IMG/VR virus record: IMGVR_UViG_3300042275_000481
Coordinates: 38,172-102,171 of that record
Length of the DNA stretch: 64,000 nt
Direction: 5' to 3' (one strand)
Source of the DNA: a virus
Lineage: Duplodnaviria; Heunggongvirae; Uroviricota; Caudoviricetes
Part shown: in pieces, positions 20,161 to 62,461 of the stretch
Layout of the letters: each line of letters starts with the position of its first letter
Numbering within the stretch: position 1 is the stretch's first letter
Program-made: the position numbers and the translations under genes
Notes under the pieces: generated by a model
The model's database searches: none
Seen by the model: only the letters and a program-made list of their open reading frames with translations
Told to the model about the DNA's origin: nothing

Positions 20161-20162
20161 AT

Positions 20163-38851: not shown

Positions 38852-38948
38852 AATTTTGTTTCCTCCCTGTTATTTGTTTTGTCGAGTTATAATTTTCCAG
38901 TAACTCGCATTTATAATATATAGTTTAAAACTTATTTAAAAATACAAC

Positions 38949-39746: not shown

Positions 39747-39950
39747 ATTCTCACCTCGATCTTCTCACATATAATTAATTGTTCTTATTCTAACACCTCT
39801 TAGAATTAAAAGGTGTCAAAATAGACCGAAGAGAGGATCTATTTTGACGTTCAAAGAGAAATGAAGAAAGAAACTATGAAGAGATATCTTTGTGGGGTCT
39901 CTAGTCCCACTAATAATTTGTTCTGAATTTTCTCATGAAATTTCTAAGGT

Positions 39951-43348: not shown

Positions 43349-43419
43349 AAATATAATATATAAATGAAAAAAATATTAAGAAAAGACAAACCAGATGGTT
43401 TGTCTTAAATATTAACTAA

Positions 43420-44715
43420 TTATGTTGTTTTAACTGTTTTCTTTGGAGTTACACTACTACCTTTAGAGCTGCTATTATTACTTTGATTTCCGTATACTAC
43501 TTTTTTCGCAGCTTCAACATTGGCAGGTTTAGTGCTTGGAGTTGAAACTTTATTTTTAACTTTATTAAAGGCTTTCTTGATACCAGTAGCAGCTCGTCCT
43601 ACACCACTAGTTTGTTGCCAGTTTTGTTTTTTAGCTGTACTATAATCAGCCTGTGCCTTAGCACGTTTAGCGCCTACATCAGTTTTTATTTTATTAACAT
43701 TTTGTTTTTTATTTAGTTTATATTGTTTTTTATTTTGTACTTTTTGAGAAGCTAGTTTAGCAACTTTGTTGTAATCACTTTCAGCTGTAGCTTGTTTCAT
43801 TTTACCCTTTAAGGCTTTTTTACTTTCTTTGTATTTTGCTTTTGCAGTTGCTTTTGCATCAGATACAAGTGCTTTTCCAGCTTGTGAAAGAGTACGATTG
43901 TTTGCTTTATGAGCTTTCTTAAGGTCACCAGCAGCATTTCCTCTGAAAAGACCCTCATTTAGTGATATAAAGTTTTCAGACTCATTGATGATTCCCTCAA
44001 TAACCACAATTTCTTCATATGACATTGCAGATAGAGCTTCAGAAAGTTGATCTAGTGATACAGAAGTAATATCATTATAAATATCTAAAGCTTCTATAAT
44101 AGAGACTTTATTTTCTGAAATAATGTCTTCTTCATTAATTTCACTAGCTTCTACTAGTTCGAAACCAAGCTGTTCAGCAAGATAATTGAATGTGTATTTT
44201 TCAGTATCTAACTCTAGTTCTTCAAATAATTGTAATAATTCGTCTTCATCATAAACTTCGCCTTCTACAACAACTTCTTCAACTTCTTCGTTTTCATCAT
44301 GTTCGTCAGTTGGATAAACATCTTCATTGTCAGTATCAGGTTCAGCAGTTTCAGCATCGCCTTCATCAGTTGCTTCGTTGTCTGTTTTAGCAATGTCACC
44401 CTTAGAAGTTAATTCTTCTTCATCTAATACTTCAAAACCAAGTTGCTCAGCAAGATAATTGAAAGTATATTTGTCAGTATCTAATCCTAAATTTTCAAAT
44501 AGCTCTGCTAATTCTTCTTCAGAATATGATTCAACAATAACTTCTTTTATTTCTTCTACTTCTTTGTGTGAATCTTTAGTATAAATTTCTTTGTTTCCTA
44601 ATTGAACCTTATAAAGTTCAGGTTGATTTTCTTTAGTAGCTTCATTATCTGTCTTAGCAATGTCACCCTTAGAAGTTAATTCTTCTAATAATGATTGTAA
44701 TTTTTTATTTAACAT
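43420..44715 (-). CDS. acidic tandem-repeat protein (paralogue of 51202-54045)
   Basis: 431 aa. Two copies of ...TSKGDIAKTDNEAT...EVEE..VVE...EEL.(E/Q)LFE.L.LDT(D/E)KYTFNYLAEQLGFE. Lys-rich C-terminal third. Confidence 0.5.
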   Translation of the reverse strand: MLNKKLQSLLEELTSKGDIAKTDNEATKENQPELYKVQLGNKEIYTKDSHKEVEEIKEVIVESYSEEELAELFENLGLDTDKYTFNYLAEQLGFEVLDEEELTSKGDIAKTDNEATDEGDAETAEPDTDNEDVYPTDEHDENEEVEEVVVEGEVYDEDELLQLFEELELDTEKYTFNYLAEQLGFELVEASEINEEDIISENKVSIIEALDIYNDITSVSLDQLSEALSAMSYEEIVVIEGIINESENFISLNEGLFRGNAAGDLKKAHKANNRTLSQAGKALVSDAKATAKAKYKESKKALKGKMKQATAESDYNKVAKLASQKVQNKKQYKLNKKQNVNKIKTDVGAKRAKAQADYSTAKKQNWQQTSGVGRAATGIKKAFNKVKNKVSTPSTKPANVEAAKKVVYGNQSNNSSSKGSSVTPKKTVKTT

Positions 44716-44717
44716 AA

Positions 44718-44948
44718 TTATTCCTCCTTATCCTTTTTATTGTTATTATACTCTACTTCTATATTATCTACGTCTAATTCTTCTAAAATAGTACCAAAAA
44801 TAATTTCTTGCTCTAATGCTCTTTTTTCTTTCTCAGAAAGGTTAAAAGCATCTTGTTTAACTTCGGATTTTTTAATCTCCTCATTTAACTTTTTAAATAA
44901 AGCCATAATATTCCTCCTTATACGTCTTTCATATAATATTTTGTTCAT
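44718..44948 (-). CDS. small hypothetical protein
   Basis: 76-aa ORF overlapping the upstream stop. Confidence 0.35.
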   Translation of the reverse strand: MNKILYERRIRRNIMALFKKLNEEIKKSEVKQDAFNLSEKEKRALEQEIIFGTILEELDVDNIEVEYNNNKKDKEE

Positions 44949-44965
44949 ACTAAATACTATTAAAA

Positions 44966-45000
44966 TGGCAAAAAAAAAAGATAACCGAAGTTATCTTTTA
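44966..45000 (-). terminator. intrinsic terminator hairpin gataaccgaagttatc with A/T runs
   Basis: Fourth member of the aaccgaa-loop hairpin family. Confidence 0.45.
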
Positions 45001-45489
45001 TAAGTTATCGATAATAAACTCAATTAATTCAGCTTTTTTCATTCTAGAATAACCATGAAGGTCATTTTCCTTAGCCATCTCTTTAAGCTCAACTAGAGTC
45101 ATTTTTCTTAAATTATCTCTAGTAAGAGTTTCAGAAGGTTCTTCGATTTCCTCTTCTTCAAATTCCTTTGTAAGTTCTTCTTCATGATCTGCTAAAGTTT
45201 TTATACCTTTGATCTCTTCATTATAATTCTCATGAAACATACTTAACTGAATCGCATTGTCTTTTTCTTCTTTAATTTCTTCCTCTTGAATAGTCTCTTC
45301 TTCAATTGGTTGTTGTACTCTTGTTATTGTTTCTGGCTCACGTTTTGGATCCATTTTAAACATTGATTCATATTTTTCATATGATTTGTTAATATCATTT
45401 TCTTTAGTTTTTCTTGGTCTAATTGTTATAATTAAAAATATAATAACTAAGAGGCCAATCACACCATAAATAATGTATTCCTGTGGCAT
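44998..45489 (-). CDS. membrane-anchored protein with C-terminal Rho_N/HeH motif
   Basis: N-terminal TM helix (IIYGVIGLLVIIFLIITI). C-terminal LRKMTLVELKEMAKENDLHGYSRMKKAELIEFI (Rho-N-like). Confidence 0.45.
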   Translation of the reverse strand: MPQEYIIYGVIGLLVIIFLIITIRPRKTKENDINKSYEKYESMFKMDPKREPETITRVQQPIEEETIQEEEIKEEKDNAIQLSMFHENYNEEIKGIKTLADHEEELTKEFEEEEIEEPSETLTRDNLRKMTLVELKEMAKENDLHGYSRMKKAELIEFIIDNL

Positions 45490-45505
45490 TGTCTGGTTCT
45501 CCTCT

Positions 45506-46216
45506 CTAAATAGTTGCGAATATCTGGTTAATTTTTACAAAACCACTCTGGCTTGTTATATTAACATATCTTTTGTTATTGTCATCTCTATCGCTATAAT
45601 AGAGCATATAACTAACACCATCTTCAGATTCATCTAAGTTTATAGCTTTTTTAGCTTTTTTAGATAAAAACTGATATGATAGTATTCTTTTGATTGGAAA
45701 TTCAATAATTTTTTCCGCAGTCTTTGTTTTAACTGCCTCATTATTTTCATCCTCATATAACACAAGATTGTCCTCAAAATTTGAGAAATCAAGCTCATAT
45801 GAATAGACCAATTTCTTTTCAATATCATCAATACTGTTTATTATATCATGATGCTTTGGATTGTCAATGTTGGAACATACAAAATTCTGTTCATTTCCAT
45901 CACGATCATCATATACAATCTTAAATTCATCATCTGTAACGATCATATCTTTAAGATTCTTTTTGATAGCCGCTTTCTTAAACTCATTGATATATTCTAA
46001 TTCAAGAGTTAGATTCTTGTCCTTAATCCATTTAAGAAATTCATTATCATCATTATTAATAAGCTCTCCATATAAAATAAAGAACTGATCTTTCTTATAG
46101 AAAAATTTATTCCCAACAAAATAAATCTTTTGTACAATATTGTTATTTATGAGTGTATAAATATTATCAAAATATTTAACTACTTCAAATATCTCTTTCT
46201 GTTCAAAATTATTCAT
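45506..46216 (-). CDS. hypothetical protein
   Basis: 236-aa ORF. Confidence 0.4.
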   Translation of the reverse strand: MNNFEQKEIFEVVKYFDNIYTLINNNIVQKIYFVGNKFFYKKDQFFILYGELINNDDNEFLKWIKDKNLTLELEYINEFKKAAIKKNLKDMIVTDDEFKIVYDDRDGNEQNFVCSNIDNPKHHDIINSIDDIEKKLVYSYELDFSNFEDNLVLYEDENNEAVKTKTAEKIIEFPIKRILSYQFLSKKAKKAINLDESEDGVSYMLYYSDRDDNNKRYVNITSQSGFVKINQIFATI

Positions 46217-46233
46217 AAAAACGAGGATGAGGA

Positions 46234-46626
46234 TTATTCATCCTCGTCCTCTTCATCTTCCTTTCTCTCTACGAGTAAAACATCGATTTCTAAAAAGTCA
46301 CACAACATCGAGAAAGTTGTATCTAACATAGAACGTCTATGTCTAAGCCCGCTAATTATATTATAACCTAATTTTTGTCCTTCAGCGGTGTCTCCGCCTT
46401 TGATATCACTACAATAATCATATAAATCAGAATATACTAAGTCTTTAGCATTGATCCTCTCTACAATTGCTGCTTTTAGTGGTGAGTCATCTGGATGTGG
46501 GTCAAATGTTAAAGGTTTAACAGATGTACTAGGTTTTTTACTCTTCTTAGCTTTTGCTCTTTTAACTTTATCGACATTAGCGACTATGGTTGTTAGATCC
46601 ATATCTATTTTTCTATTTTTTGCCAT
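46234..46626 (-). CDS. hypothetical protein with acidic tail
   Basis: 130-aa ORF. Confidence 0.4.
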   Translation of the reverse strand: MAKNRKIDMDLTTIVANVDKVKRAKAKKSKKPSTSVKPLTFDPHPDDSPLKAAIVERINAKDLVYSDLYDYCSDIKGGDTAEGQKLGYNIISGLRHRRSMLDTTFSMLCDFLEIDVLLVERKEDEEDEDE

Positions 46627-46647
46627 AATCGTTGTCCTTTCTTACTG

Positions 46648-47682
46648 CTACTCTTCGTCGTTGAAGATATCATCGACAGCAGACGAATCGTTAAAATTAA
46701 CAGAAGCTACCGGTGTTTCCTCTACATTTCTCATGTTTACGATGCTTTTTTCATTTTTGCGAGGTGGAAGATTACCCCTTGTTGGTTGTGCTTGTAATTC
46801 CTCATCCATGTAGTCTTGTGGACTAACTTCATCTGGTTGAGGTCTCAAAGCTGGTTGTTGTCTTGTTTTAAATGTATTTCTAGTTGCAGTATTTCCATAT
46901 CTTGGTTGTGTTGCAGCTTGTTGTTGTCTTGGTTGATATGTGTTATTTCCATAGGCAGGTTGTTGAGGTGTTTGTTGTTGATATTGACTTTGCCTTGGTG
47001 CTTGTTGTTGATAACCTTGTTGAGGTGCTTGATATGATGGAGCATTATAAGTTGGAGATCCATCATTATCATTTAGCATTGCTAACATAGTTAATTGAAC
47101 TTGAATTCCGCTTAAGTCAATGTCTTTAACAATTGTATAAACTGTTAAGAATTCTTCAGCAGTCATTGGCGATGCAAAGTTTGAACTTGAAATTTGAATT
47201 GTCGCACCAGGAACTTTATTTCTGATGTTAGATTCTGGGTCAATATTTTCAACTGTTGCCACACCGAATGAAATCCAATTGTTATCTCTACCAATTCCAT
47301 CAATAATGAAAGGTTCTTGAAACTGACTCTTAACTTCTAGAACTCCTTCAATTTCTTCAAAAGTGTTAGGGTCTAACAATAAGTCCTTAACGATTTCCAT
47401 TTGCTCTCTTATTGCAAATAATTGTGGAAATGAAGTATAGAGTGTTTCATTTGTTTCGTAAGTTTCCCCACGATATCCAAACACTAAATAGATATTTGGA
47501 TTGATGTTTAAAGTTGTAACAGGTTTGTTTGTACGGTTGTTAGTATAAGTGCTTTTATATACTAGATTTGCTGTAGAGCCGTCATTACGTTCTCTTGTAA
47601 ATGTTCCTTTTACGGAAAGTTTGAATTGTGCGATTGTGCTATCGAATAGCACCATTTCTACTTGATTAAAATTCATATTCAT
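46648..47682 (-). CDS. candidate single-stranded DNA-binding protein (globular N-domain + Q/P-rich disordered linker + acidic tip)
   Basis: Architecture only: a ~200-aa folded domain, then a Gln/Pro/Tyr-rich low-complexity linker (QQGYQQQAPRQSQYQQQ...), then C-terminal ...VDDIFNDEE reminiscent of the SSB DDDIPF tip. Sits directly upstream of a helicase. Confidence 0.35.
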   Translation of the reverse strand: MNMNFNQVEMVLFDSTIAQFKLSVKGTFTRERNDGSTANLVYKSTYTNNRTNKPVTTLNINPNIYLVFGYRGETYETNETLYTSFPQLFAIREQMEIVKDLLLDPNTFEEIEGVLEVKSQFQEPFIIDGIGRDNNWISFGVATVENIDPESNIRNKVPGATIQISSSNFASPMTAEEFLTVYTIVKDIDLSGIQVQLTMLAMLNDNDGSPTYNAPSYQAPQQGYQQQAPRQSQYQQQTPQQPAYGNNTYQPRQQQAATQPRYGNTATRNTFKTRQQPALRPQPDEVSPQDYMDEELQAQPTRGNLPPRKNEKSIVNMRNVEETPVASVNFNDSSAVDDIFNDEE

Positions 47683-47700
47683 TTTTATTTTCTCTCCTTG

Positions 47701-49125
47701 TTATTCGTAGTTGTCTATTTCAATGATTTTTTTAGCATTTTTCTTATAGAATCTTTTTCTGGTTTTCATCTGATTAACGGTCGATGGATACCCAATGTCT
47801 GTTACGTCAATTAATATTGAGGATTTATTTTCCCCTTGTCTCAATCTTCCCATTATTTGTTCAGTCTTTACTAAACTTCCGAATGGAACAAAATTTATCA
47901 AAATTTCTAAATCTTGGACATCAATTCCTTTATCAAACATCTTGTCATTCGTTAGAATAACGTCTTGCTTTAGTGCTTCTTCTCGTTCTGATTTTTTGAC
48001 TTCACCAATAAATAAACCTGTACTTAAATTTATGTTCTCATCTAAATCAGCTTTAAGTTTTTTTATTAAACTTATTGTTGGAAGCATTATAGCTACTTTC
48101 TTTTTCCGTTCTTCTAGTTTAAACTTCTCAAAGATATCCAATACAACTTTGAGAAATATCTCATAACTTTCATTCTCTAGGTTGGAAGCCCATTTACCTG
48201 CATTGAAACCATACTTCGTTTTAGAAGCAAGTTGTTCGTCAAGGGATGGTTTACTATCCATTTTGAAGAGAACTACAGTGTGATATTTTTCACCATATAT
48301 TCCTTTACCATTAAAATATGGAATTCGTCTTAAAACTTTTCCATATAAATGGTCATCCGTATAGCTACTACGACTTGGTGTCGCAGTTAAGAAGATTGTA
48401 TACTCAACATTGCTCAGAGAGTTAATCATACACACATTTTTAAAATTAACGTGTGCTTCATCAAAAACTCTGATTCCAATTTTGAGCTTATTCATCAATA
48501 AATTTATTGAATTATAATCTTCATCTAGCATATTAGTCAGTGTCCTGTGTATAGCAATATATACTTTTCCACTAGGACTCTTCTTTTCTTTTTCTACAAT
48601 CTCTGTCCCTGAAAGGATTACAACGTCACCTTGCTTTAGATTTGTGTGTTTAAGAAATTCTCTCTCCCACTGCAAGGCAAGTTCGACAGTATCAACAATA
48701 ACTAAAGGTCTTTTTTTATACTTAGATATCACGTTTATAGTAACATAAGTTTTACCTTTACCTGTTCTTAATGATAATAATCTCTCTCTCATATAGTTAT
48801 CATTTTTCATTTTCATTAGAAAATTGATACTATCTTTTTGCAAGTCGTCTCTGGGACCATAATTCATAGTATATACTACTTGAGATGATTTGGATGTTGT
48901 TTTGTAGTTATATGATACATCTTTGTTAGGAAAGTGCTTTTGTATCTGGTCTAATCCAATACTTGATGGGAAATACAGATCATTGTCTATTAATGTAAAT
49001 GCTGAAAGTGTATATTTATGTTGAACTTTATCCCACAGGGAATATTGATAGTTTACATTCTTATACGCTTGTGATTCTAAATCAACATTTCGTACAATAA
49101 TAGAGTTTCTTCCCACTTCTATCAT
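47701..49125 (-). CDS. SF2 (DEAH-type) helicase
   Basis: Motif I LRTGKGKT. Motif II VFDEAH. Motif III LTATP. Motif VI QIMGRLRQ. Confidence 0.7.
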   Translation of the reverse strand: MIEVGRNSIIVRNVDLESQAYKNVNYQYSLWDKVQHKYTLSAFTLIDNDLYFPSSIGLDQIQKHFPNKDVSYNYKTTSKSSQVVYTMNYGPRDDLQKDSINFLMKMKNDNYMRERLLSLRTGKGKTYVTINVISKYKKRPLVIVDTVELALQWEREFLKHTNLKQGDVVILSGTEIVEKEKKSPSGKVYIAIHRTLTNMLDEDYNSINLLMNKLKIGIRVFDEAHVNFKNVCMINSLSNVEYTIFLTATPSRSSYTDDHLYGKVLRRIPYFNGKGIYGEKYHTVVLFKMDSKPSLDEQLASKTKYGFNAGKWASNLENESYEIFLKVVLDIFEKFKLEERKKKVAIMLPTISLIKKLKADLDENINLSTGLFIGEVKKSEREEALKQDVILTNDKMFDKGIDVQDLEILINFVPFGSLVKTEQIMGRLRQGENKSSILIDVTDIGYPSTVNQMKTRKRFYKKNAKKIIEIDNYE

Positions 49126-49140
49126 CCGCTCTCACCTCTC

Positions 49141-51063
49141 TTAATAGTATAAATAATCCATTAGACTTTCTTCATCTTTTTCATACGTTTTTAAGTTTAT
49201 GAATTGCTCAGGTAGTCTTTCAAATGCTAATGCTTTTGCGATTGGACCATTCAATACTGTATTCGATACTCTTAGTATCTCATAATTATTTAATCTCTTC
49301 TTAGAGAAATCTAATTTGTTTCCTGTCTCTTTGTCCACGATTAATACAGAACTAATCATTTCAGCATGAACTGACATAATATCTAGTCCATTTTCTAAGA
49401 TAAGATCATCAAAGTTATTTACTAATTCATCATAGTTTTTGACATCAAGATGCCCACTAGATTCAATAAGGTCAAGAATTTGTTGCAATGATTTTGTTAG
49501 TTCATTGTTTTTAGCCATGAACGTAAATACAGCTTCATTATCGTCAAAATCGCTTCCTTTAAGTTTTATAACTTTAGTACTTTCTTCTTCCCCATCAAAA
49601 TCATATTCTTCGTCAAACTCATCTTTAATATTATTCATATTATAATATAATTTGACTTCTGGTGTCTTGTATGTAAAGACTTTCTTTCCTTGATGAATGA
49701 TTTCAATCTTTTCTGTATATTCACCAATTTCATCTTCATCTTGGTCTTCGATAGGAACTTTGTAAACAAGTACATCCGTATCTGGGTCTTTGATGAAAAT
49801 AGAATTCATATTGATTGAGAAATAGTCTAAGAATGGTTTCTTATCGTTGTAATTCCAATCAATTTTTTCTGAATTTGTGGTCAATAAATGTTTTGCGGAA
49901 AGCAATTTCTGTGTAAGTGGATTTGTTAGAAGTAATACAGATAATAATCCAGTATTTAAATCCTCATTGATTTCAGATAATTCTGAACCATAACAAGTTC
50001 TACAAACATGTCCTTCAGCCGCACATGTAACTGGCGAGCGCAGACCAATAATTTTTCCAATCAAATCTTTATTCTTGTTGGAATCTACTGTTAACAATTC
50101 GGACTCTTTCTTTCCATCTTTGTCAATAATGTAGTAATGTCTTCCATGGATTTGATCTAATTTCTTCTGAGTTTCTATATTATATTTAATATAATGCTCA
50201 GTTCCGCAGTCAACATGACTATGGTCATGATAACGGTCAATTAATGCTAATGATAATTTTCTTGTAAGATAGCCAGATTTTCTTACTTGTCTAGCGTTTG
50301 TTATGAGCGCCTTTCTTGTACCTTTTGCATTAATGAAATAGTTTTGAATAGTCTTTAAACCATTTAGATAATTCTCATCAATAGCATGGGGTATAATACT
50401 GCCATCAATATCAGGTTTCAGACCAATGAACCCAATTGCTTGTGTAAGCTGTTTCTTGTTAATTCCTGTATCCGCAGTCATAAATGGATAAAGTTCTGTC
50501 TCTGGACGGTCTAAGAAGAATTTCTCTATCTCATGTCCAAGTTTACTAAACTCATCTTCAATATCATTAAACTGCATTCTATCTTCTAACTTGTAGTTGA
50601 ATATTGCTTCTGCTTCTGGATCTTCCACATATAAGCGAACAAAGTCATGGAATGATATACTATTTCCAGCAAGTACATTTAACTCACCAGATAAGTCTGA
50701 CATTTCATTAATTGTTTCAGCTATAGTTTTTCGAAGATTATCAAAGTCAACTACAGTCTTTCCTTTGGCGATTATACTATTAAAATATTCATTAAGATTG
50801 TCCGCTGTGACAGATGCGAATCCGAAGATAAAATCTTCAGTCAAGACGACATCTTTTTCAACAAACGGTTTCATAATAAGTAAATTAATCAGCACTCTAC
50901 CAAGTGTTGCGTCAATAATCTGAGCTCCAATTTGTATCTTTGCAGGATTCTTTCTGGCGCTATAATCTTGCAAAATCAAATTCTTCAGATCGTTCTTCGT
51001 GTACTCATATTCTTCGTATTTACTGAAGATATTCGTGAAATTAAATAGTCTTTCTGAGCTCAT
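49141..51063 (-). CDS. multisubunit RNA polymerase beta'-like subunit, C-terminal-half fragment
   Basis: GTRKALITNARQVRKSGYLTRKL matches rpoC ...G.RKGL.DTALKTA.SGYLTRRL. RSPVTCAAEGHVCRTCYG matches the beta' ...C....GVC..CYG region. Followed by an ...LLTNPLTQKLL... segment aligned to the trigger-loop region. Confidence 0.6.
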   Translation of the reverse strand: MSSERLFNFTNIFSKYEEYEYTKNDLKNLILQDYSARKNPAKIQIGAQIIDATLGRVLINLLIMKPFVEKDVVLTEDFIFGFASVTADNLNEYFNSIIAKGKTVVDFDNLRKTIAETINEMSDLSGELNVLAGNSISFHDFVRLYVEDPEAEAIFNYKLEDRMQFNDIEDEFSKLGHEIEKFFLDRPETELYPFMTADTGINKKQLTQAIGFIGLKPDIDGSIIPHAIDENYLNGLKTIQNYFINAKGTRKALITNARQVRKSGYLTRKLSLALIDRYHDHSHVDCGTEHYIKYNIETQKKLDQIHGRHYYIIDKDGKKESELLTVDSNKNKDLIGKIIGLRSPVTCAAEGHVCRTCYGSELSEINEDLNTGLLSVLLLTNPLTQKLLSAKHLLTTNSEKIDWNYNDKKPFLDYFSINMNSIFIKDPDTDVLVYKVPIEDQDEDEIGEYTEKIEIIHQGKKVFTYKTPEVKLYYNMNNIKDEFDEEYDFDGEEESTKVIKLKGSDFDDNEAVFTFMAKNNELTKSLQQILDLIESSGHLDVKNYDELVNNFDDLILENGLDIMSVHAEMISSVLIVDKETGNKLDFSKKRLNNYEILRVSNTVLNGPIAKALAFERLPEQFINLKTYEKDEESLMDYLYY

Positions 51064-51201
51064 ACATACCTCCTATGAAGCTTAAATTCTCATGGTGCTT
51101 CAAGTATATAATATATTTTTATATTAATTTTAAACGTTTAAATTTTTTTGACTATGATAAATAAGGACTAACTTTTGTTAGTCCTTTTAATTAAAATAAT
51201 A

Positions 51202-54045
51202 TTATTTACTTTCTTTTAAGTTAACTAATTCTTGTGATTTTGCTTTTGCAGCCTCACCATATCTATCATGAAGCTGTTCTTGTAGTTTCTTAGCAAGAAT
51301 AGTTGTTCTTACAAGTTCTTCATAAAGAGGATCTTGCGATTCACGAGCGATAAGAAGAGACATTTGATTTTCCAATTTGTTTCTCTTTTCATCAGCAGTT
51401 AATACAACTTTACTATCTTTAGAGAAATAATCTGCTTCTAATAGGAAAGCTTCTTTAATAGATTTATAACCTTCAGTTACATCTTCAGGTTGAGCTTTTT
51501 CATCTTCTTTTTCATCAGCAGGATCTTCTAATTCACCATCATTATTGATAGTGTCAGATCCAGCATCATTAAGTTCTTCAGTTGATTTAGGTTCTTTTTC
51601 TTCGGCTTCTTCAATGATTTCAGCACGAACTTTTTTACCTTCTTCGTCAGCAGCATCATGAGGTTTAACAGAAACTTCATCATTTTTAACTTCTGGTTCA
51701 ACTTCGCAATCAGAGTCTTTCTTAGTTTTTTCTTTTTCCTCAGCTGGATTTAGAACTTCTTCTTCATTAACAACAGAATCTTCAGATTCTTCCTTTTCAT
51801 CATCATCTGATTCTTCATCATGATCTTCATCTTTAGAATCGTCTTCTAATTTTTCAGGAACTTTGTCTTCGTCATCTTTGTCGCCTTTAGTATTCTTTTC
51901 AAGTTCTTCTGGAAGTTCTTTCTTTTCTTCAGCTTCTACAACAACTTCTTTAACTTCTTCAACTTCTTTATGTTCATCACTTGGATAAACATCAGCATTG
52001 TCATCTTTAGGAGCGTCTGCAGAACCATCATTTTCTTTAGTAGCTTCATTGTCAGAATGAGCAGCATCACCTTTAGATGTTACTTCTTCAACAACAACTT
52101 CTTCTACATCATCTTCTTGCTTATGTTCATCAGCATAAAGATCTTCATTATCTACTTGGTCAGCATTTTCAGGATCATCTTTACCTTTAACTGCATCTTT
52201 TGTAGGATTATTAACTACATCAATAGCAGCAATTCCAGCTGTAGACATTTCTTTAAGAACAGCGTCAAGAACTTCTAAAGCTTCTTGTAATCTTGCAGCG
52301 TCAGATTCAGTAATTTGTTCTGATGGATTAGAAACAGGAAGTTCGATTTCGATTTTTTCTTTATATACTTTAAGATCCGCTTCGCTATCAGCAGGAACTT
52401 CAAAGTCTTCATTTAATTTTTTACCAGTAAATACACCATAAACTTCTTTTAGAGCTTCAGTAACGATTTCTTGTTCTTTATCACTAAGTTCTTTAGCAAA
52501 TTTTTCGTTTTCTCTAATTGGAAGTGTGATAAATACTGCATTTTCAGAAACTTGAATAGCGTCTTCAACGACTACTTCTTCAACTTCTTCAACTTCTTTA
52601 TGTTCATCAGCTGGGAAGACATCTTCATTATCATCTTTAGGTTCTTCTGATTCTGGTTTTCCTTCATCAGTAGCTTCATTATCTGTCTTAGCAACTTCAC
52701 CTTTAGATGTAACTTCTTCTTCAATAAGTTCTTTTTGAACTTTCTCAGGGTCAACTTCATCTGGTTGTGTTACTAATTCACCTTTAGAGTCTAATGTATC
52801 AGACTTAACATCATTAAGTTTATCTGCTTTTCCAGCATTTTCAACTTCTTTATTTGCTTTATCTAATTGCTCACCTTCTACAACAACTTCTTCGACTTCT
52901 TCTTTTTCCTCATGTTCATCTTTTGGATAAACATCTTCGTTATCGTCTTTAGGCTCTTCTGAAGTTCCTTCACCGTCTTTAGTAGCTTCAGGTTTAGCTG
53001 CTGCATCACCTTTATCAGTTACTTCTTCAACGACTACTTCTTCGACTTCTTCTGCTTCTTTATGTTCATCACTTGGATAAACATCTTCGTTATCGTCTTT
53101 AGGTTGTTCAGATTTTCCATCTTCTTCTTTAGTTGCTTCGTTATCTGTCTTAGCAACTTCACCTTTAGATGTAACTTCTTCTACAACAACTTCTTCGACT
53201 TCTTCGTCTTCATTATGTTCTTCTTTTGAATAAACATCTTCATTATCTGTATCTGGTTCTTTAGTTTCTGCGTCAGCGTCATCAGTAGCTACAGGTTCAG
53301 CTGCTGCATCACCTTTGTCAGTCACTTCTTCTTCACGTAGAGGTTTCATATCCCTAAGGATATCAAAGATACTTTCTAATGATTCGTTTACGCTTTCGAT
53401 GTTTTCATCTTTAGTTAGCGCTTTTTTATCTTGTTTGATAGTATCATCTCCTTCTTTATCTTTTGTATCATTAACATCTTTATCATTTGCTTGAACTTCT
53501 GGTTCTAATTCTTTTTCTTCAGCATCGATCTCATCATTTTCAGGAGATTCTACTTCTGCATTGACCTTTTGTCCACTAACTCTAGCACTTTCTGGTCCGT
53601 TATTTTGCATAGCTAGACGTTTTTGTTTCATCATTTCTGCATTTGCATTAGTTTCCCTAGCTTTTGCATTAGTTTCTTGAGGTGTATCAGCTTCTAATAA
53701 AACGTCAGCTTTAACAAATTTAGTATTAGGGTCATTAAGCTCTTTTAAGAATTTTGCACGTTCTTCAACAGCAAGTTCTCTCATAGAACTTACACCATAC
53801 TTCTCAAGAAGAAGATTCATTTTTTCTTTAGCAGAAAGGTCCTTGCTTTCAACAATTACTTCTTTTACTTCCTCAACTGCACTATGAGAATCCTTAGTGT
53901 ATACATCGGAATTTTTTAATTCTGGGTTACTTAATTCTGGGTTTGCCTTCTTAGTTGCTTTAGTTTCTAATTCTTCTAGAAGATTATCCAAAGCATTTTG
54001 TGTTTTTCCCTCATTAAGAAGACTACGTAGTTTATTTTTATCCAT
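51202..54045 (-). CDS. giant acidic tandem-repeat protein (947 aa)
   Basis: At least 5 tandem copies of a ~50-aa unit EEVTSKG(D/E)xAKTDNEATxE...PKDDNEDVYPSDEHKEVEEVEEVVVE. N-terminus is paralogous to 43420-44715 (VYTKDSHSAVEEVKEVIVES vs IYTKDSHKEVEEIKEVIVES). Confidence 0.55.
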   Translation of the reverse strand: MDKNKLRSLLNEGKTQNALDNLLEELETKATKKANPELSNPELKNSDVYTKDSHSAVEEVKEVIVESKDLSAKEKMNLLLEKYGVSSMRELAVEERAKFLKELNDPNTKFVKADVLLEADTPQETNAKARETNANAEMMKQKRLAMQNNGPESARVSGQKVNAEVESPENDEIDAEEKELEPEVQANDKDVNDTKDKEGDDTIKQDKKALTKDENIESVNESLESIFDILRDMKPLREEEVTDKGDAAAEPVATDDADAETKEPDTDNEDVYSKEEHNEDEEVEEVVVEEVTSKGEVAKTDNEATKEEDGKSEQPKDDNEDVYPSDEHKEAEEVEEVVVEEVTDKGDAAAKPEATKDGEGTSEEPKDDNEDVYPKDEHEEKEEVEEVVVEGEQLDKANKEVENAGKADKLNDVKSDTLDSKGELVTQPDEVDPEKVQKELIEEEVTSKGEVAKTDNEATDEGKPESEEPKDDNEDVFPADEHKEVEEVEEVVVEDAIQVSENAVFITLPIRENEKFAKELSDKEQEIVTEALKEVYGVFTGKKLNEDFEVPADSEADLKVYKEKIEIELPVSNPSEQITESDAARLQEALEVLDAVLKEMSTAGIAAIDVVNNPTKDAVKGKDDPENADQVDNEDLYADEHKQEDDVEEVVVEEVTSKGDAAHSDNEATKENDGSADAPKDDNADVYPSDEHKEVEEVKEVVVEAEEKKELPEELEKNTKGDKDDEDKVPEKLEDDSKDEDHDEESDDDEKEESEDSVVNEEEVLNPAEEKEKTKKDSDCEVEPEVKNDEVSVKPHDAADEEGKKVRAEIIEEAEEKEPKSTEELNDAGSDTINNDGELEDPADEKEDEKAQPEDVTEGYKSIKEAFLLEADYFSKDSKVVLTADEKRNKLENQMSLLIARESQDPLYEELVRTTILAKKLQEQLHDRYGEAAKAKSQELVNLKESK
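51930..53340. repeat. imperfect tandem DNA repeats (~150-bp units) inside 51202-54045
   Basis: Recurrent blocks such as ttcttcaacttctttatgttcatc...tggataaacatcttc(g/a)ttatc(g/a)tctttagg at ~51950, ~52580, ~52880, ~53040, ~53200. Confidence 0.6.
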
Positions 54046-54138
54046 AGTAGAATTCCTCCTTTTTTATTCATAATTCATCTATATAATTTATTGTTTAATT
54101 AAATAAGGTGCAAATTCTAAATTTTTAAAATTTTTATC

Positions 54139-54402: not shown

Positions 54403-55194
54403 TTAATTTATAATTATATATCCATTATTTTCTGTTGCAAAAGATATTTGAAAATTGACAAACTTATCTCCCTCTGCAATAGACAGAAATTTTAGTGTGC
54501 GTATATTTCCTAATTCTTCCTTTACAACAACTTCTTCATTATTTAATAATGCAACTGTTATTGTATCCGAACCCTCAATTTTAAAGTATGTTTTTTTATA
54601 AAATTGAAAATTAGAAGTTTCAGAGTATAAGTTAGTCCAATCAGTTAAATCTGTAATATAGTATCCGTAATCATCTAATGGCAAATCATAATCGAATTCA
54701 GAATTGAAATGATATTCACCATTAATTATAAATTGTAATTTGTTCTTAGTCCACATTACATTGTCGCTATTTTTGTCATAAACTGTAAGAACTCTCTTAT
54801 TGATTGGATTGACAGTTTCATCATATCCAGATAGTTGTTCGTAACCATTTGGGTCAATATCTTCATAAATGTCAGAATCTTGGTCAAATAAATCAACAAA
54901 TTCGATATAATTAATTCCTCTAATAACAGCAATTATTCCATCATTAGTAATTAATGTATTTTCATCAGTTGAGCCAGATATTCCTGATACTTCCCTATTA
55001 TAGATATAAAAAGCATGATTATTATAGTCAGCTGGCAGAGTTCTTAAACTCCAATCAGAAATCTCATAATGAATTCCATTTAGTAATAAGCCATTATTTG
55101 CACCATTATTATTTCGTTTCAGTTCAAGCACATCTGTTGGTTGGTCTATCATTGGGCTACTATTATTAATAGTATTTATAATATATCTTTTCAT
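54403..55194 (-). CDS. hypothetical protein
   Basis: 263-aa ORF. Confidence 0.4.
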   Translation of the reverse strand: MKRYIINTINNSSPMIDQPTDVLELKRNNNGANNGLLLNGIHYEISDWSLRTLPADYNNHAFYIYNREVSGISGSTDENTLITNDGIIAVIRGINYIEFVDLFDQDSDIYEDIDPNGYEQLSGYDETVNPINKRVLTVYDKNSDNVMWTKNKLQFIINGEYHFNSEFDYDLPLDDYGYYITDLTDWTNLYSETSNFQFYKKTYFKIEGSDTITVALLNNEEVVVKEELGNIRTLKFLSIAEGDKFVNFQISFATENNGYIIIN

Positions 55195-55586
55195 TAGAAC
55201 GCCACCCCAATCACTAAATCTATATCCTTACTACAAGTTATTTCAATTGGGTCATCTTGTATTGCAATCAAAATATATCCCTCTTTATATGGAAATACTG
55301 TATACTCATCTGAATTGCCATTGATTGTAATTGCTCCATCACCAGATGATTCGTCCATAAGAATTAAAAACATTCCACGATAAAACGGAGTGACTATATT
55401 AGTATTGGCGATGATATTATATCTATAAAAAAATAAATCTTTGAAAACGCCATTAACAGGCACTATATCATTGTCATGATAGTATTTCTCTACCATATCA
55501 AATACACTAAAATCTGGTGCAAGTTTAATAAAATAGTCCTGCAGATTTTTGTTTATACTCTTCATAATATCACTCCTTTGACTCAT
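55194..55586 (-). CDS. hypothetical protein
   Basis: 130-aa ORF overlapping the downstream start by 1 nt. Confidence 0.4.
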   Translation of the reverse strand: MSQRSDIMKSINKNLQDYFIKLAPDFSVFDMVEKYYHDNDIVPVNGVFKDLFFYRYNIIANTNIVTPFYRGMFLILMDESSGDGAITINGNSDEYTVFPYKEGYILIAIQDDPIEITCSKDIDLVIGVAF

Positions 55587-55637
55587 ATAATTAATTGTTC
55601 AACTTTACCACTTTTTAAGAATCAAAAAAAAGGATAC

Positions 55638-56063
55638 TTAATATCCTTTTAATTCATCTCGTACTTTCATTATTGTTTTTCCAAGCATGTTCAAGCCATT
55701 TCCATCACAGACTCCCCAAAATTTATCTCCCCAAGTGTTGCCTTCTATTAAAACAGCATCACCAGTATCGAGAAGCATATCTTGTAAATCTGGCTCTGAG
55801 AATTTTGCTCTTATCACATGTTCCATCACTTCAACCTTGATTTCTTCCCAGTCTTCCCTTAACTTTACTTGTCTTCCTAATCTTTTTGCTTCATTAGGTG
55901 GAAGATTCTGGAATTGACTTTTTATTGAAAGGTCAAATGTTTTCTGTGCATGGAATGCAGCTTCTGCATTTTGATAAGTTCTACCATATAAAGTTAGTTC
56001 ATGAGGGTAAAAATTACTTAGAAAGTAATAGCCGCCCTTGAACTCTGCAATTTTATTGTTCAT
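55638..56063 (-). CDS. NADAR-domain protein (YbiA/DUF1768 family)
   Basis: GGYYFLSNFYP...YQNAEAAFHAQK...WGDKFWGVCDGNGLNMLGKTIM matches the NADAR signature. 141 aa. Confidence 0.7.
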   Translation of the reverse strand: MNNKIAEFKGGYYFLSNFYPHELTLYGRTYQNAEAAFHAQKTFDLSIKSQFQNLPPNEAKRLGRQVKLREDWEEIKVEVMEHVIRAKFSEPDLQDMLLDTGDAVLIEGNTWGDKFWGVCDGNGLNMLGKTIMKVRDELKGY

Positions 56064-57983: not shown

Positions 57984-58328
57984 TTATAGGGCACCTCCTT
58001 CTTTCTCATCATACTTCATTTTTTTCTTAATACGCTTTTCTTCTTTTACAATAGATTTAGGAAAGTTATAAACAGTTACAAGCACTATATCTTTTTCTGT
58101 CATAGAAAATATAAATACAAAGCTTCCGTAAACTTTGACAATTTGGTTTTTTCCCTTATAACGTTCAAAATACTTTTTACCTTTTTCACTATTGAAATCA
58201 TCTATTTCCATTCCAAAAATAAATGCTTTCTCTGCAAAACGTCTCAGCTTTCCTATTGTTATTCTTTTACCTGTTTCTAGGATTCTTTCCTTACCACGTT
58301 GTAATGCGTGGTCACTAACAACAATCAT
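57984..58328 (-). CDS. hypothetical protein
   Basis: 114-aa ORF overlapping the upstream radical-SAM gene stop. Confidence 0.35.
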   Translation of the reverse strand: MIVVSDHALQRGKERILETGKRITIGKLRRFAEKAFIFGMEIDDFNSEKGKKYFERYKGKNQIVKVYGSFVFIFSMTEKDIVLVTVYNFPKSIVKEEKRIKKKMKYDEKEGGAL

Positions 58329-59047
58329 TGTACATCTTTTCCTTCTTTATCTTCCCAATGACTGTATACTTTTCCGTCAGCTCTGAAAATTTCATATCTT
58401 CCGTGGCTGTCTTGACAACTTGCATCTAGTCTTACACTAACTTTCTTATTGCCATTGAATTTATCAACGATTGCATATATATTGGAAAGATCTTTCATTT
58501 CATTTGCATCAATCCATTTATTCGTATCTTCATCTTCTGTTGTTTGAAGAACTTTAAACGTGATTTGTTCAAACCCCATTGGACTGAAATTCTTTGCTGT
58601 AAGGAAATCAAATTCGTTAGTTAATAGAATGACTAATCGATTTTTTGCATTTGGAAGTCTTCTCAAACTCCATGCTTGAAGATATTCCTTACTATTTGTA
58701 ATACTGTATGCTAATACAGACAATTCGTGAAAATCATAATTCTTGACGCTGTAATTCTTTGTTTGTAATTCAGTATGATAACCCTTTAAGGTTTCCAATA
58801 CATCACTTAACCAATGACTATTTAAAGTCGGATCGGATGCTCCTGTAATCACAAAATCTTTATATTTACCAGATTCAGTTAATGCTTTTAATTTATTCAG
58901 ATACTCCTCCCGATTCTCTGAATACATATCTGGAAATCTTTTTCTTCCACTTGCGATGCACATTGGGCACTTAAATGGACATGGTTCATAAGGCATGCTT
59001 ACTTGTAAGTTCATGATAAACCTCCTCTTTCTATTGCAGTAATGCAA
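58325..59047 (-). CDS. radical SAM domain protein
   Basis: N-terminal CPFKCPMC (C-x3-C-x2-C) cluster. Downstream Gly-rich VITGASDPTLN segment (SAM-binding GGE-like). Confidence 0.5.
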   Translation of the reverse strand: MHYCNRKRRFIMNLQVSMPYEPCPFKCPMCIASGRKRFPDMYSENREEYLNKLKALTESGKYKDFVITGASDPTLNSHWLSDVLETLKGYHTELQTKNYSVKNYDFHELSVLAYSITNSKEYLQAWSLRRLPNAKNRLVILLTNEFDFLTAKNFSPMGFEQITFKVLQTTEDEDTNKWIDANEMKDLSNIYAIVDKFNGNKKVSVRLDASCQDSHGRYEIFRADGKVYSHWEDKEGKDVQ

Positions 59048-61496: not shown

Positions 61497-61558
61497 AAAA
61501 ACCTCCCTATACCTAGAATGTATAAATAAATTATTTGTTCTAAGTAAAGGGATTATTT

Positions 61559-62455: not shown

Positions 62456-62461
62456 TTATAA

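What the first reader, a model, noticed from the sequence alone, without database searches (positions are those of the whole stretch)
43420..54045. Two paralogous, extremely acidic tandem-repeat proteins (431 and 947 aa) with matching DNA-level tandem repeats
Both start with ...E(E/L)L...KGD.AKTDNEAT... and (I/V)YTKDSH..VEE(I/V)KEVIVES. They then reiterate ~50-aa units rich in EEVEEVVVE / DEHKEVEEVEEVVVE / TSKGDxAKTDNEAT. The smaller one adds two copies of a folded-looking unit EEL.ELFE.L.LDTDKYTFNYLAEQLGFE. The net charge is strongly negative. Such proteins are candidates for DNA mimics (anti-restriction), packaged inner-body/ejection proteins, or polyanionic scaffolds. The repeat-number difference suggests rapid evolution.
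Basis: seen in the sequence. Interest (0 to 1): 0.65.

Follow-up and report, generated by a model that had tools for sequence, protein, structure and literature searches.

The report
Acidic repeat head-assembly proteins of jumbo phage
Two late genes of an uncultured giant phage encode proteins built from a roughly 50-residue acidic module, which in related phages also forms the tail of the capsid-maturation protease, so they are most likely capsid-interior proteins that this protease cuts up, not DNA mimics.

Summary
Both ORFs are real: A (43420-44715, 431 aa) and B (51202-54045, 947 aa), minus strand. An independent metagenome contig reproduces B base for base. They share only an N-terminal leader and a ~51-aa disordered acidic unit ending in EEVxEV(I/V)VE, 2 copies in A and 7 in B. 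B is extremely acidic (net -176). A is bipolar: an acidic N-half (-62) and a basic coiled-coil C-half (+35).

The window belongs to an uncultured relative of Bacillus phage AR9/PBS1. The unit occurs in only 80 of 1.84 billion representative proteins. The only recurrent annotated domains beside it are the T4 gp21-type prohead protease and a domain homologous to AR9 gp153, a late virion protein. That domain forms B's C-terminus and sits at gp153's syntenic position.

Most unit proteins carry the unit directly behind the N-terminal leader, like a propeptide. Small residues usually follow the invariant terminal Glu, as at known gp21-family cleavage sites. Both genes lie between a conserved AR9-type late promoter motif and a terminator, among early genes.

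Best reading (confidence ~0.6): protease-processed prohead core or internal head proteins. DNA mimicry is not supported. No cleavage or packaging was shown. This is a new variant of a known kind, of moderate interest.

The parts
51202..54045 (-). ORF B, 947 aa. It reads: leader helix, unit, helical region, 3 tandem units, unit, beta-beta-alpha x2 domain, 2 units, KD/E-rich low-complexity region, HDxAD-EGKKVR motif, and a gp153-like C-terminal domain.
   Evidence: An identical gene is present in independent contig L009.
52876..53334 (-). Three head-to-tail acidic units of B (aa 238-390). This is the only true DNA-level tandem array (150-nt period).
   Evidence: TRF reports 52875-53332, period 150, 3.0 copies, 73% matches. 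Unit HMM per-copy E-values are 1e-22 to 1e-25.
53848..53979 (-). N-terminal unit of B (aa 23-66, ending VIVE|S), located behind the leader MDKNKLRSLLNEG.
52564..52722 (-). Unit of B, aa 442-494.
51934..52254 (-). Two adjacent units of B, aa 598-704.
52246..52563 (-). Duplicated beta-beta-alpha domain of B (aa 495-600). It is predicted ordered (pLDDT 60-86). The same module occurs in protease C-terminal extensions of relatives.
51601..51699 (-). Short conserved motif V-x-V-K-P-HDxAD-EEGKKVR-x-EI (aa 783-815), also found in protease extensions.
   Evidence: sequences.
51214..51462 (-). C-terminal helical domain of B (aa 862-944), homologous to the AR9 gp153 virion protein and preceded by a conserved FLLE|ADYF junction.
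   Evidence: BLASTP 2e-7 against AR9 gp153. phrog_26909 matches B at E 1.3e-4 and 13 of 74 unit proteins with best E 7e-9. Synteny. Junction. pLDDT 82-89.
54081..54095 (-). Late-type promoter motif AACAATAAATTATAT, about 50 nt upstream of B.
   Evidence: It matches the AR9 late consensus AACA-N6-TA/G (PMC5312081). It is conserved at -46 to -52 in front of B homologues in L004, L011 and L002, and in front of a protease gene in L005. There are 6 sites in the window against 0.17 expected.
51163..51186 (-). Intrinsic terminator hairpin directly after B.
   Evidence: Fold energy -13.8 kcal/mol, z = -5.6.
51108..51120 (-). Early-type promoter motif AAAAATATATTAT-N6-G for the next gene, non-virion RNAP beta' C-terminal part. 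This is context: it shows that B is a late cassette set among early genes.
   Evidence: The motif is conserved in L004 and L011. The AR9 early consensus is given in PMC5312081.
43420..44715 (-). ORF A, 431 aa. It reads: leader MLNKKLQSLLEEL, unit, ELF, unit, ELF, central helical region, and a basic coiled-coil hairpin with a disordered basic tail.
44530..44685 (-). Unit 1 of A (aa 11-62, ending VIVE|S).
   Evidence: pLDDT about 30-35.
44431..44529 (-). ELF module 1 of A (aa 63-95, SYSEEELAELFENLGLDTDKYTFNYLAEQLGFE).
   Evidence: helix-loop-helix, pLDDT about 70. 56 instances in 31 proteins.
44263..44421 (-). Unit 2 of A (aa 99-151, ending VVVE|G).
44158..44262 (-). ELF module 2 of A (aa 152-186).
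43423..43950 (-). Basic C-terminal half of A (aa 256-431, net +35). Residues 261-369 are predicted as a long antiparallel helical hairpin.
   Evidence: pLDDT above 90 for residues 270-360.
44718..44905 (-). Small acidic ORF (62 aa from the ATG that has a Shine-Dalgarno sequence), directly upstream of A and probably co-transcribed with it.
   Evidence: A small ORF also precedes the A homologue in L011.
44931..44945 (-). Late-type promoter motif AACAAAATATTATAT in front of the small ORF and A.
   Evidence: An equivalent motif is present in L011.
44970..44999 (-). Terminator hairpin plus T-run after the preceding (Rho_N-domain) gene. It insulates the A cassette.
   Evidence: Fold energy -9.0 kcal/mol, z = -3.1.
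43383..43406 (-). Intrinsic terminator directly after A. It is followed by an early-type motif (43353-43365) for the RNase H gene.
   Evidence: Fold energy -13.6 kcal/mol, z = -5.1.

Best explanation
A and B are late-expressed components of the prohead interior (core or internal head proteins) of an uncultured AR9/PBS1-related jumbo phage.

The ~50-aa acidic, disordered unit is a pro-sequence module. It has an N-x-D-(V/I)-(Y/F/L)...H...EEV-x-EV-(I/V)-V-E core and usually sits right behind an N-terminal amphipathic leader, M-x-NKKLQ-x-LLEEL. I infer that it takes the protein into the assembling prohead core, and that the T4 gp21-type prohead protease cuts it after the invariant terminal Glu (V-x-E|S/G/A). 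This would parallel L/I-x-E in T4, S/A-x-E in phiKZ and A-x-E in SPN3US. In some relatives the protease itself carries the same modules as its C-terminal extension, which would co-target enzyme and substrates.

Processing would cut B into about 50-100-aa acidic pieces and release its C-terminal domain of about 75 aa. That domain is the counterpart of AR9 virion protein gp153 and would be released at a conserved L-x-E junction. Processing of A would strip the acidic N-half (net -62) from a basic coiled-coil half (net +35). That half could then associate with the packaged DNA, as T4's internal proteins do.

Shown: the module architecture, its taxonomic restriction, its co-occurrence with the protease and the gp153-like domain, synteny, promoter and terminator motifs, and predicted disorder.

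Inferred: packaging, cleavage at the unit ends, and the fate and role of the fragments.
For: (1) The unit profile finds only 80 proteins among 1.84 billion representatives. Among 74 unit proteins the only recurrent Pfam families are Peptidase_S77/S80 prohead protease (8). The top PHROGs are virion structural phrog_26909 (13) and head maturation protease (8).
(2) Every module found in A and B (unit, ELF, beta-beta-alpha, HDxAD motif) also occurs in the protease C-terminal extension of some relative (sequences). The protease domain is 40-45% identical to those of AR9 and Staphylococcus jumbo phages.
(3) 68 of 100 unit proteins have the first unit within 40 aa of the N-terminus, behind a conserved leader. 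That is the layout of capsid-targeting propeptides.
(4) The most conserved unit positions are the terminal EEVxEV(I/V)VE, with Glu in 96% of 132 copies. The next residue is S, G or A in 101 of 157 cases. SPN3US gp245 also prefers Ser at P1' (PMC10052503), and T4 gp22 is cut at a Glu-Ala bond (PMC9026906). ELF modules are preceded by Glu in 29 of 33 cases, 23 of them E|S. The gp153-like domain is preceded by an L-x-E in 32 of 33 cases.
(5) B's C-terminus is homologous to AR9 gp153 and lies at the same position, just upstream of the non-virion RNAP beta' C-terminal gene. g153 is annotated as a virion protein gene and was shown experimentally to be late (PMC5312081).
(6) The late-type motif AACA-W6-TATAT precedes B, the A cassette, a virion-structural operon in the window, the B homologues of three other phages and a protease gene. 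There are 6 sites against 0.17 expected. Terminators bracket both cassettes.
(7) In giant phages, N-terminal propeptides and the protease's C-terminal propeptide are thought to target proteins into the prohead, and propeptides hold multiple cleavage sites (PMC7411985; PMC5694885; PMC9026906).
Against: No proteomic or biochemical data exist for this phage or for any unit-bearing protein, so cleavage and packaging are inferred.

The cognate protease lies outside the window. Several proteases of the clade are short, about 277-300 aa, and carry no unit. The relative whose DNA polymerase gene is 78% identical to the window's (L014), and the related L015, have a protease with an acidic KD-rich tail but no unit. 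That tail shows no significant similarity to B.

The location of AR9 gp153 in the virion (head or tail) is not known to me.

V-x-E motifs are bound to be frequent in E/V-rich sequence, so counting them proves little. The L-x-E junction lies in a predicted helix and may be conserved for structural reasons.

No major capsid or portal protein was found carrying the unit. The late promoter assignment is transferred from AR9 by motif only.
Confidence: 0.6

Rival explanations
1. Pure scaffold. B, and perhaps A, is the gp22-like scaffolding core protein of these phages. The acidic units drive core assembly, the protein is degraded completely, and nothing functional remains in the virion.
For: B is large, highly acidic and mostly disordered with short helices. 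It holds many potential cleavage sites. It shares modules with the protease tail, as scaffold and protease do in lambda and the herpesviruses. No gp22 counterpart is confirmed in giant phages (PMC5694885).
Against: B's C-terminal domain is homologous to a protein found in mature AR9 virions, so at least that part probably stays. AR9 has a separate acidic, non-virion candidate (gp116) between its major capsid protein gene (g117) and its protease gene (g114), with the virion-protein gene g115 also in between; this is roughly where T4 keeps its scaffold gene. A ends in a basic coiled coil that is unlike a scaffold.
Confidence: 0.2
2. Anti-defence DNA mimic or polyanionic decoy. The acidic repeats imitate DNA and titrate restriction enzymes or other DNA-binding defence proteins, either in the cytoplasm or after ejection from the capsid.
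For: Extreme negative charge. T4 IPI shows that packaged internal proteins can be anti-restriction factors (PMC9026906).
Against: The acidic parts are predicted disordered, not a rigid DNA-shaped fold. There is no similarity to any Pfam, NCBIfam or PDB family. The promoter motif is late-type and there is no early motif. The most conserved feature is a hydrophobic-acidic EVxEV(I/V)VE motif, not a charge pattern.
Confidence: 0.07
3. Late, non-packaged assembly factor. The disordered acidic proteins with repeated short linear motifs act as a hub, chaperone or condensate that concentrates protease and head proteins at assembly sites, and never enter the capsid.
For: Multivalent repeated motifs in long disordered chains. 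Some homologues carry hydrophobic, membrane-like segments (sequences), which could anchor an assembly site.
Against: The layout of an N-terminal leader plus unit, and the fusion to a virion-protein domain and to the protease, fit incorporation better.
Confidence: 0.08
4. Artefact. The ORFs are non-coding, or the repeats were created or collapsed by assembly.
For: One contig (L010) breaks inside the repeat array.
Against: DNA in an independent contig is identical across the whole B gene. Repeat copies are only 63-86% identical, so they assemble unambiguously. The ORFs are conserved in dozens of diverged homologues. Shine-Dalgarno sequences, promoter motifs and terminators are in place.
Confidence: 0.01

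Closest known systems
T4 prohead core and internal proteins: capsid-targeting sequences of IPI-III and Alt, and core proteins gp22, gp67 and gp68 cut by gp21 at L/I-x-E
   Same: An N-terminal pro-sequence on head-interior proteins. The putative cut follows a Glu preceded by an aliphatic residue at P3. The protease belongs to the same family (Peptidase_S77). Acidic core proteins are cut many times. Internal proteins associate with the DNA.
   Different: The T4 capsid-targeting sequence is 10-19 aa and occurs once. Here the module is about 50 aa, acidic, reiterated up to 9 times, and also found inside and at the C-terminal end of proteins. There is no sequence homology to any T4 core protein. 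Cleavage is not demonstrated.
phiKZ inner-body proteins and SPN3US ejection proteins (gp53/gp54, pfam12699) with long propeptides, and the C-terminal propeptide of their protease (gp175/gp245)
   Same: A giant phage encoding multisubunit RNAPs. Long propeptides hold several cleavage motifs. The protease C-terminal propeptide is implicated in prohead targeting. The paralogue families are variable.
   Different: There is no hit to pfam12699. The motif would be V-x-E rather than S/A-x-E. Here the protease tail and its presumed substrates share recognisable sequence modules, which I did not find reported for phiKZ or SPN3US in the papers read.
Protease-scaffold pairs that share a C-terminal part (lambda C/Nu3, herpesvirus UL26/UL26.5); recalled from general knowledge, not checked here
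   Same: The enzyme and the core or scaffold protein carry the same sequence, so that both co-assemble in the procapsid.
   Different: In those systems the shared part comes from nested genes. Here separate genes share shuffled modules, and only some proteases of the clade carry them.
Bacillus phage AR9 gp153 (99-aa late virion protein; phrog_26909)
   Same: It is homologous to B residues ~874-941, lies at the same genomic position upstream of the non-virion RNAP beta' C-terminal gene, and has the same late-promoter/early-promoter arrangement.
   Different: gp153 has only about 20 residues ahead of the domain, ending in IILE. B has about 870 residues of acidic modules ahead of it.
Ocr/ArdA-type DNA-mimic anti-restriction proteins
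   Same: Very high negative charge.
   Different: Those are small, folded proteins (Ocr is an early phage protein); this is from general knowledge. A and B are late-type, mostly disordered and modular, and share no homology with them.

Membership tests
Substrates of a gp21-family prohead protease (propeptide or capsid-targeting-sequence-bearing head proteins) | Cleaved C-terminal to Glu at a short motif with an aliphatic or small residue at P3 (L/I-x-E, S/A-x-E or A-x-E) | tested here: inconclusive
   The motif V-(I/V)-V-E is present at all 9 unit ends. Glu is conserved in 96% of 132 copies, and P1' is S, G or A in 64%. Actual cleavage cannot be tested with these tools.
Substrates of a gp21-family prohead protease (propeptide or capsid-targeting-sequence-bearing head proteins) | A cognate gp21-family protease is encoded by the same phage | tested here: inconclusive
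   No protease lies in the window. By synteny with L004 and L014 it should lie beyond the DNA polymerase gene, past position 64000. Related phages all encode one.
Substrates of a gp21-family prohead protease (propeptide or capsid-targeting-sequence-bearing head proteins) | Physically present in proheads or virions | not testable with these tools
   The only evidence is indirect: B's C-terminal domain is homologous to AR9 virion protein gp153.
Substrates of a gp21-family prohead protease (propeptide or capsid-targeting-sequence-bearing head proteins) | Late (morphogenetic) expression | tested here: inconclusive
   A conserved AR9-type late motif lies upstream of both cassettes and of a protease gene. 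There are 6 sites against 0.17 expected. No transcript data exist for this phage.
AR9 gp153 / phrog_26909 virion structural protein | Sequence homology to the family profile | tested here: met
   B residues 878-942 match phrog_26909 at E 1.3e-4. 13 of 74 unit proteins match with best E 7e-9. BLASTP to AR9 gp153 gives 2e-7.
AR9 gp153 / phrog_26909 virion structural protein | Conserved position upstream of the non-virion RNAP beta' C-terminal gene | tested here: met
   Window, AR9, L004, L011, L009.
phiKZ-type inner-body / SPN3US ejection proteins (pfam12699) | Match to pfam12699 | tested here: not met
   The Pfam scan of A and B gave no hit to this family. None appeared among 74 unit proteins.
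DNA-mimic anti-restriction proteins (Ocr, ArdA) | A compact fold that displays carboxylates in a B-DNA-like pattern, or homology to a known mimic | tested here: not met
   The acidic units have pLDDT about 30-35, and 630 of B's 947 residues are below 50. There is no Pfam, NCBIfam or PDB relative. Fold searches gave nothing with E <= 0.001.
T4 gp22/gp67/gp68 scaffolding core proteins | Sequence homology | tested here: not met
   No Pfam or PHROG hit of that kind for A or B. The resemblance is functional only.

The most novel reading that the evidence does not exclude
The ~50-aa acidic unit plus its leader may be a portable, sequence-recognisable tag for capsid targeting and release. It would mark the whole packaged or core proteome of an uncultured clade of AR9-related jumbo phages and would be shared by the maturation protease and its substrates. 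B, a chain of seven such tags, would then be the missing functional counterpart of the T4 gp22 scaffold/core protein in giant phages. It would release many copies of an acidic internal peptide plus a small virion protein.
Probability: 0.25. Interest if true: 0.65.

Novelty: new variant of a known kind. Interest (0 to 1): 0.45.

Why it matters
Giant-phage heads contain dozens of internal proteins. How these are selected for packaging is poorly understood, and no scaffold equivalent has been confirmed (PMC5694885).

A conserved module that is easy to recognise and is shared by the maturation protease and a set of late proteins would allow three things. First, the packaged and processed proteome could be predicted from sequence alone in an uncultured clade. 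Second, it would supply a candidate targeting tag for loading foreign cargo into jumbo-phage capsids, as the T4 capsid-targeting sequence does. Third, it would offer a concrete candidate for the core or scaffold component.

It also removes these proteins from the list of likely DNA-mimic anti-defence factors.

Tried and rejected
(1) Searches of 50,697 cultured phage records found nothing. This covered megablast of the region, tblastn of A and of B, and tblastn of a double ELF module. The modules seem confined to uncultured phages.

(2) Foldseek gave nothing with E <= 0.001. The B model was searched against BFVD and the A model against PDB. A's basic half only resembles generic antiparallel coiled coils such as Smc and BAR domains. 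Profile searches of PDB sequences also gave nothing useful. NCBIfam was empty. Pfam gave only a sub-threshold DUF7690 hit for A.

(3) I tried to reach this phage's own protease by walking off the window end. One look-up failed. The other returned contigs that stop before it. The metagenome scan with protease profiles returned 19 loci, none overlapping the window. The relative with 78% DNA identity in the polymerase gene (L014) has a protease without units.

(4) I tested whether the units tag unrelated cargo. After masking the units, 90 of 100 proteins still fell into one single-linkage cluster, because other modules are shuffled among them. I therefore describe a mosaic superfamily rather than 'diverse unrelated cargo'.

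(5) I suspected that the KD-rich tail of the L015 protease resembles B residues 705-780. BLASTP gives no significant match, so I dropped the claim.

(6) The protein encoded just after the protease gene in L004 and L005 is not the major capsid protein.

(7) The plain late motif AACA-N6-T(A/G) is too short to be informative on its own. Only the extended, conserved version is significant.

(8) No tRNA genes were found.

Full report
**What is there**

The window is AT-rich (about 31% GC) and almost all of its genes lie on the minus strand. The two ORFs named in the finding exist at exactly the stated coordinates: A at 43420-44715 (431 aa) and B at 51202-54045 (947 aa).

Both contain a unit of about 51-55 aa. 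Its consensus is EEVTSKGDxAxxDNEATKExDxExxxPxxDNEDVYPxDEHKExEEVEEVVVE. A has two copies (aa 8-62 and 97-151). B has seven, ending at aa 66, 289, 340, 390, 494, 653 and 704. An HMM built from the nine copies hits nothing else in the six-frame translation of the window.

At DNA level only three adjacent units of B form a tandem array (52875-53332, period 150, 73% matches). The other copies are dispersed, and copies are 63-86% identical to each other. A holds one two-copy duplication of about 270 nt.

B is extremely acidic: net charge -176, 31.8% D+E, pI 4.2. A is bipolar. Residues 1-255 carry net -62 and residues 256-431 carry net +35 with pI 10.5.

BLASTP between A and B aligns only the leader and the units. 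They are therefore not full-length paralogues but two proteins that share a module. In A, each unit is followed by a module of about 32 aa, (S)YxxEELxELFExLxLDTxKYTFNYLAEQLGFE, which I call ELF.

The repeats are not an assembly artefact. Contig L009, from another record, is 100% identical to the window over 10.9 kb and includes all 2,844 nt of B. A second contig, L010, is identical but ends inside the array.

**Whose genome this is**

No cultured phage matches at DNA level. The neighbouring genes point to the AR9/PBS1 group.
- ORF 49141-51063 is the C-terminal part of an RNA polymerase beta' subunit. It is 33% identical to AR9 gp154, the non-virion RNAP subunit, and to its counterparts in PBS1 and the Staphylococcus jumbo phages.
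- It is followed by an SF2 helicase, as in AR9, where gp156 follows gp154 with gp155 in between.
- A 300-kb metagenomic contig (L004) and an IMG/VR contig (L011) show the same gene order as the window. It runs: B homologue, RNAP beta' C-terminal part, helicase, three small genes, a Rho_N-domain gene, a small ORF, and (in L004) RNase H and guanylate kinase. L011 has an A homologue at A's position, and the locus ends there. L004 has none.
- The DNA polymerase lies upstream of B and is interrupted by HNH homing endonucleases. In L004 and L014 the prohead protease lies just beyond it, which places it outside this window.

**The key evidence: what else carries the unit**

B has 24 matching 90%-identity cluster representatives and A has 14, the query itself included. 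All are metagenomic. A profile of the nine units was searched against 1.84 billion representative proteins and found only 80 with E <= 0.001. The module is therefore rare and restricted to one clade.

Among 74 unit-bearing proteins, the only recurrent Pfam families are Peptidase_S77/S80, in 8 of them. These are the T4 gp21 and phiKZ gp175 types of prohead protease. The top PHROGs are phrog_26909 'virion structural protein' (13) and head maturation protease (8).

In these proteases the catalytic domain is 40-45% identical to those of AR9 and the Staphylococcus jumbo phages. It is followed by a C-terminal extension made of units.

There are three classes:
- units ending in a gp153-like domain, as in B (34 proteins);
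- leader, unit and ELF modules, as in A (31 proteins);
- protease followed by units (8 proteins).

Every module of A and B appears in the protease extension of some relative. This holds for the unit, ELF, the duplicated beta-beta-alpha domain (B 495-600) and the HDxAD-EGKKVR motif. Examples are P0023 (protease-U-H-U-B-B-U), P0092 (protease-U-H-H-E) and P0076 (protease-B-B-U).

One caveat applies. Several proteases of the clade are short and carry no unit. L014, whose DNA polymerase gene is 78% identical to the window's, and the related L015 have only an acidic KD-rich tail. That tail shows no significant similarity to B.

**Features that look like a propeptide**

In 68 of 100 unit proteins the first unit starts within 40 residues of the N-terminus, behind a conserved amphipathic leader M-x-NKKLQ-x-LLEEL.

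Across 132 unit copies the best conserved positions are G, N-x-D-(V/I)-(Y/F/L), H and the terminal EEV-x-EV-(I/V)-V-E, with the last Glu present in 96%. The residue after that Glu is S, G or A in 101 of 157 cases.

ELF modules are preceded by Glu in 29 of 33 cases, 23 of them E|S. The gp153-like domain is preceded by an L-x-E in 32 of 33 cases (FLLE|ADYF or MLDE|DYF). AR9 gp153 itself has IILE at the aligned place.

These features fit what is known of gp21-family proteases:
- They cut after Glu at L/I-x-E in T4, S/A-x-E in phiKZ and A-x-E in SPN3US, the last with a preference for Ser at P1' (PMC9026906; PMC10052503).
- Substrates carry N-terminal propeptides that act as capsid-targeting sequences, and these propeptides often hold several cleavage sites.
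- The protease itself loses a C-terminal propeptide. In SPN3US that propeptide appears to be needed for incorporation into the prohead (PMC7411985).

**Link to a known virion protein, and timing**

B residues ~874-941 align with AR9 gp153 (BLASTP 2e-7; phrog_26909). gp153 is a 99-aa protein annotated as a virion protein. Its gene lies immediately upstream of g154, just as B lies upstream of the RNAP gene.

In AR9, g153 was shown by primer extension to be transcribed only late. Transcription from its promoter P153 is abolished by chloramphenicol. g154 has an early promoter (PMC5312081).

The window shows the same arrangement:
- The AR9-type late motif AACA-N6-TA, extended here to AACA-W6-TATAT, lies about 50 nt upstream of B.
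- A strong terminator follows B (z = -5.6).
- Then the early motif AAAAATATATTAT-N6-G precedes the RNAP gene.
- A, together with a small upstream ORF, is bracketed in the same way: terminator, late motif, genes, terminator, then an early-type motif for RNase H.

The late motif is conserved at -46 to -52 in front of the B homologues in L004, L011 and L002. It also precedes a prohead protease gene in L005 and the small ORF upstream of the A homologue in L011.

In the window the motif occurs six times against 0.17 expected, always upstream of a minus-strand gene. One of these sites heads an operon containing a virion structural protein.

**Structure predictions**

AlphaFold2 with family alignments predicts the units as disordered, with pLDDT about 30-35.
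- In A, the ELF modules are helix-loop-helix (pLDDT about 70-76), and residues 261-369 form a long antiparallel helical hairpin with pLDDT above 90.
- In B, 630 of 947 residues are below pLDDT 50. The better-predicted (helical or pLDDT ≥ 50) parts are the leader helix, helices at 72-103, 125-147 and 212-231, the beta-beta-alpha x2 domain at 495-600, and the C-terminal helical domain at 863-946.

Fold and PDB searches gave nothing specific.

**Interpretation**

The best-supported reading is that A and B are late prohead-interior proteins whose acidic unit is a pro-sequence. It would be used for incorporation into the core and would be cut by the prohead protease after the terminal Glu.

B would be cut into small acidic peptides plus a gp153-like virion protein of about 75 aa. 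A would lose its acidic half, leaving a basic coiled-coil protein that could bind the packaged DNA, much like T4's internal proteins.

The sharing of modules between the protease tail and these proteins recalls protease-scaffold pairs in other viruses. That comparison rests on general knowledge and was not tested here.

Packaging and cleavage remain inferences. I put about 0.6 on this general reading. The rivals are a scaffold that is wholly degraded (0.2), a late non-packaged assembly hub (0.08), a DNA-mimic or decoy role (0.07) and an artefact (0.01).

**Novelty**

The kind of system is well known from T4, phiKZ and SPN3US: protease-processed head proteins with targeting propeptides. Several things are new here. 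The module itself is about 50 aa, acidic, reiterated up to nine times and absent from Pfam and from cultured phages. It is visibly shared by enzyme and presumed substrates. And a small AR9 virion protein has been expanded into a 947-aa chain of such modules. I rate this as a new variant of a known kind, of moderate interest.

Noticed in passing
window 1876-1888, 20156-20168, 21814-21826, 38913-38925, 43353-43365, 51108-51120, 55178-55190 (all - strand): Copies of the AR9 early (virion RNAP) promoter consensus AAATATATATTAT, with 0-2 mismatches. The ones before the RNAP beta' C-terminal gene and before RNase H are followed by N6-G, as in AR9. This suggests the early-promoter specificity is conserved in this distant relative.
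   Followed up: partly
window 1176-1190, 8895-8909, 39769-39783, 44931-44945, 54081-54095, 55585-55599 (all - strand): The extended late-type motif AACA-W6-TATAT occurs 6 times against 0.17 expected. It marks putative late units, including the 998-aa plus 732-aa (virion structural, phrog_20401) operon and the three small genes upstream of B (55586-54139).
   Followed up: partly
window 60408-63621: The C-terminal part of the DNA polymerase (61559-62218, phrog_2927) is flanked by two HNH homing-endonuclease genes (60408-61496, 62626-63621). The polymerase gene therefore appears split by mobile elements, as in AR9. About 100-nt stretches at 33797-33893 and 62347-62448 are 94-98% identical to a sequence in the unrelated contig L017.
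   Followed up: no
window 46648-47682 (-): A 344-aa protein with an N-terminal domain, a Q/P/Y-rich low-complexity linker (30-nt repeats at 46960-47031) and an acidic tip ...DDIFNDEE. The layout recalls single-stranded-DNA-binding proteins. Only one PHROG of unknown function matches.
   Followed up: no
window 44998-45489 (-) and 5872-8868 (-): A Rho_N (helix-extended-helix) domain lies at the C-terminus of a 163-aa protein that also has a hydrophobic N-terminal segment and an acidic middle. A weak match to the same PHROG (phrog_3281) lies inside the 998-aa late protein, at residues 204-245.
   Followed up: no
L011 9263-12472: In the IMG/VR relative the B homologue is split into two ORFs inside the beta-beta-alpha domain. 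This could be a frameshift, a sequencing error or a real split.
   Followed up: no
L008 3756-4397 (AR9 gp116): AR9 encodes a very acidic, probably disordered 'hypothetical protein' between its major capsid protein gene (g117) and its protease gene (g114), with g115 also in between. This is roughly where T4 keeps its scaffold gene. It may be the AR9 scaffold candidate. It has no unit.
   Followed up: no
P0002, P0005, P0011, P0019, P0063, P0076 (homologues; sequences): Several B-type homologues and one protease extension contain Gly/Ala-rich hydrophobic, transmembrane-like segments. B itself has none. This hints at membrane-associated prohead assembly in some relatives.
   Followed up: no
window 44190-44390 (+), 51970-52278 (+), 52572-52760 (-): ORFs called on the opposite strand or in another frame inside the repeats. 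They are by-products of the repetitive GAA/GTT-rich coding sequence, not genes.
   Followed up: partly
window 33936-35408, 55638-56063, 58325-59047 (-): Other notable genes: an AAA+ ATP-dependent-protease-like protein (phrog_4871), a NADAR-domain protein and a radical-SAM-like protein.
   Followed up: no
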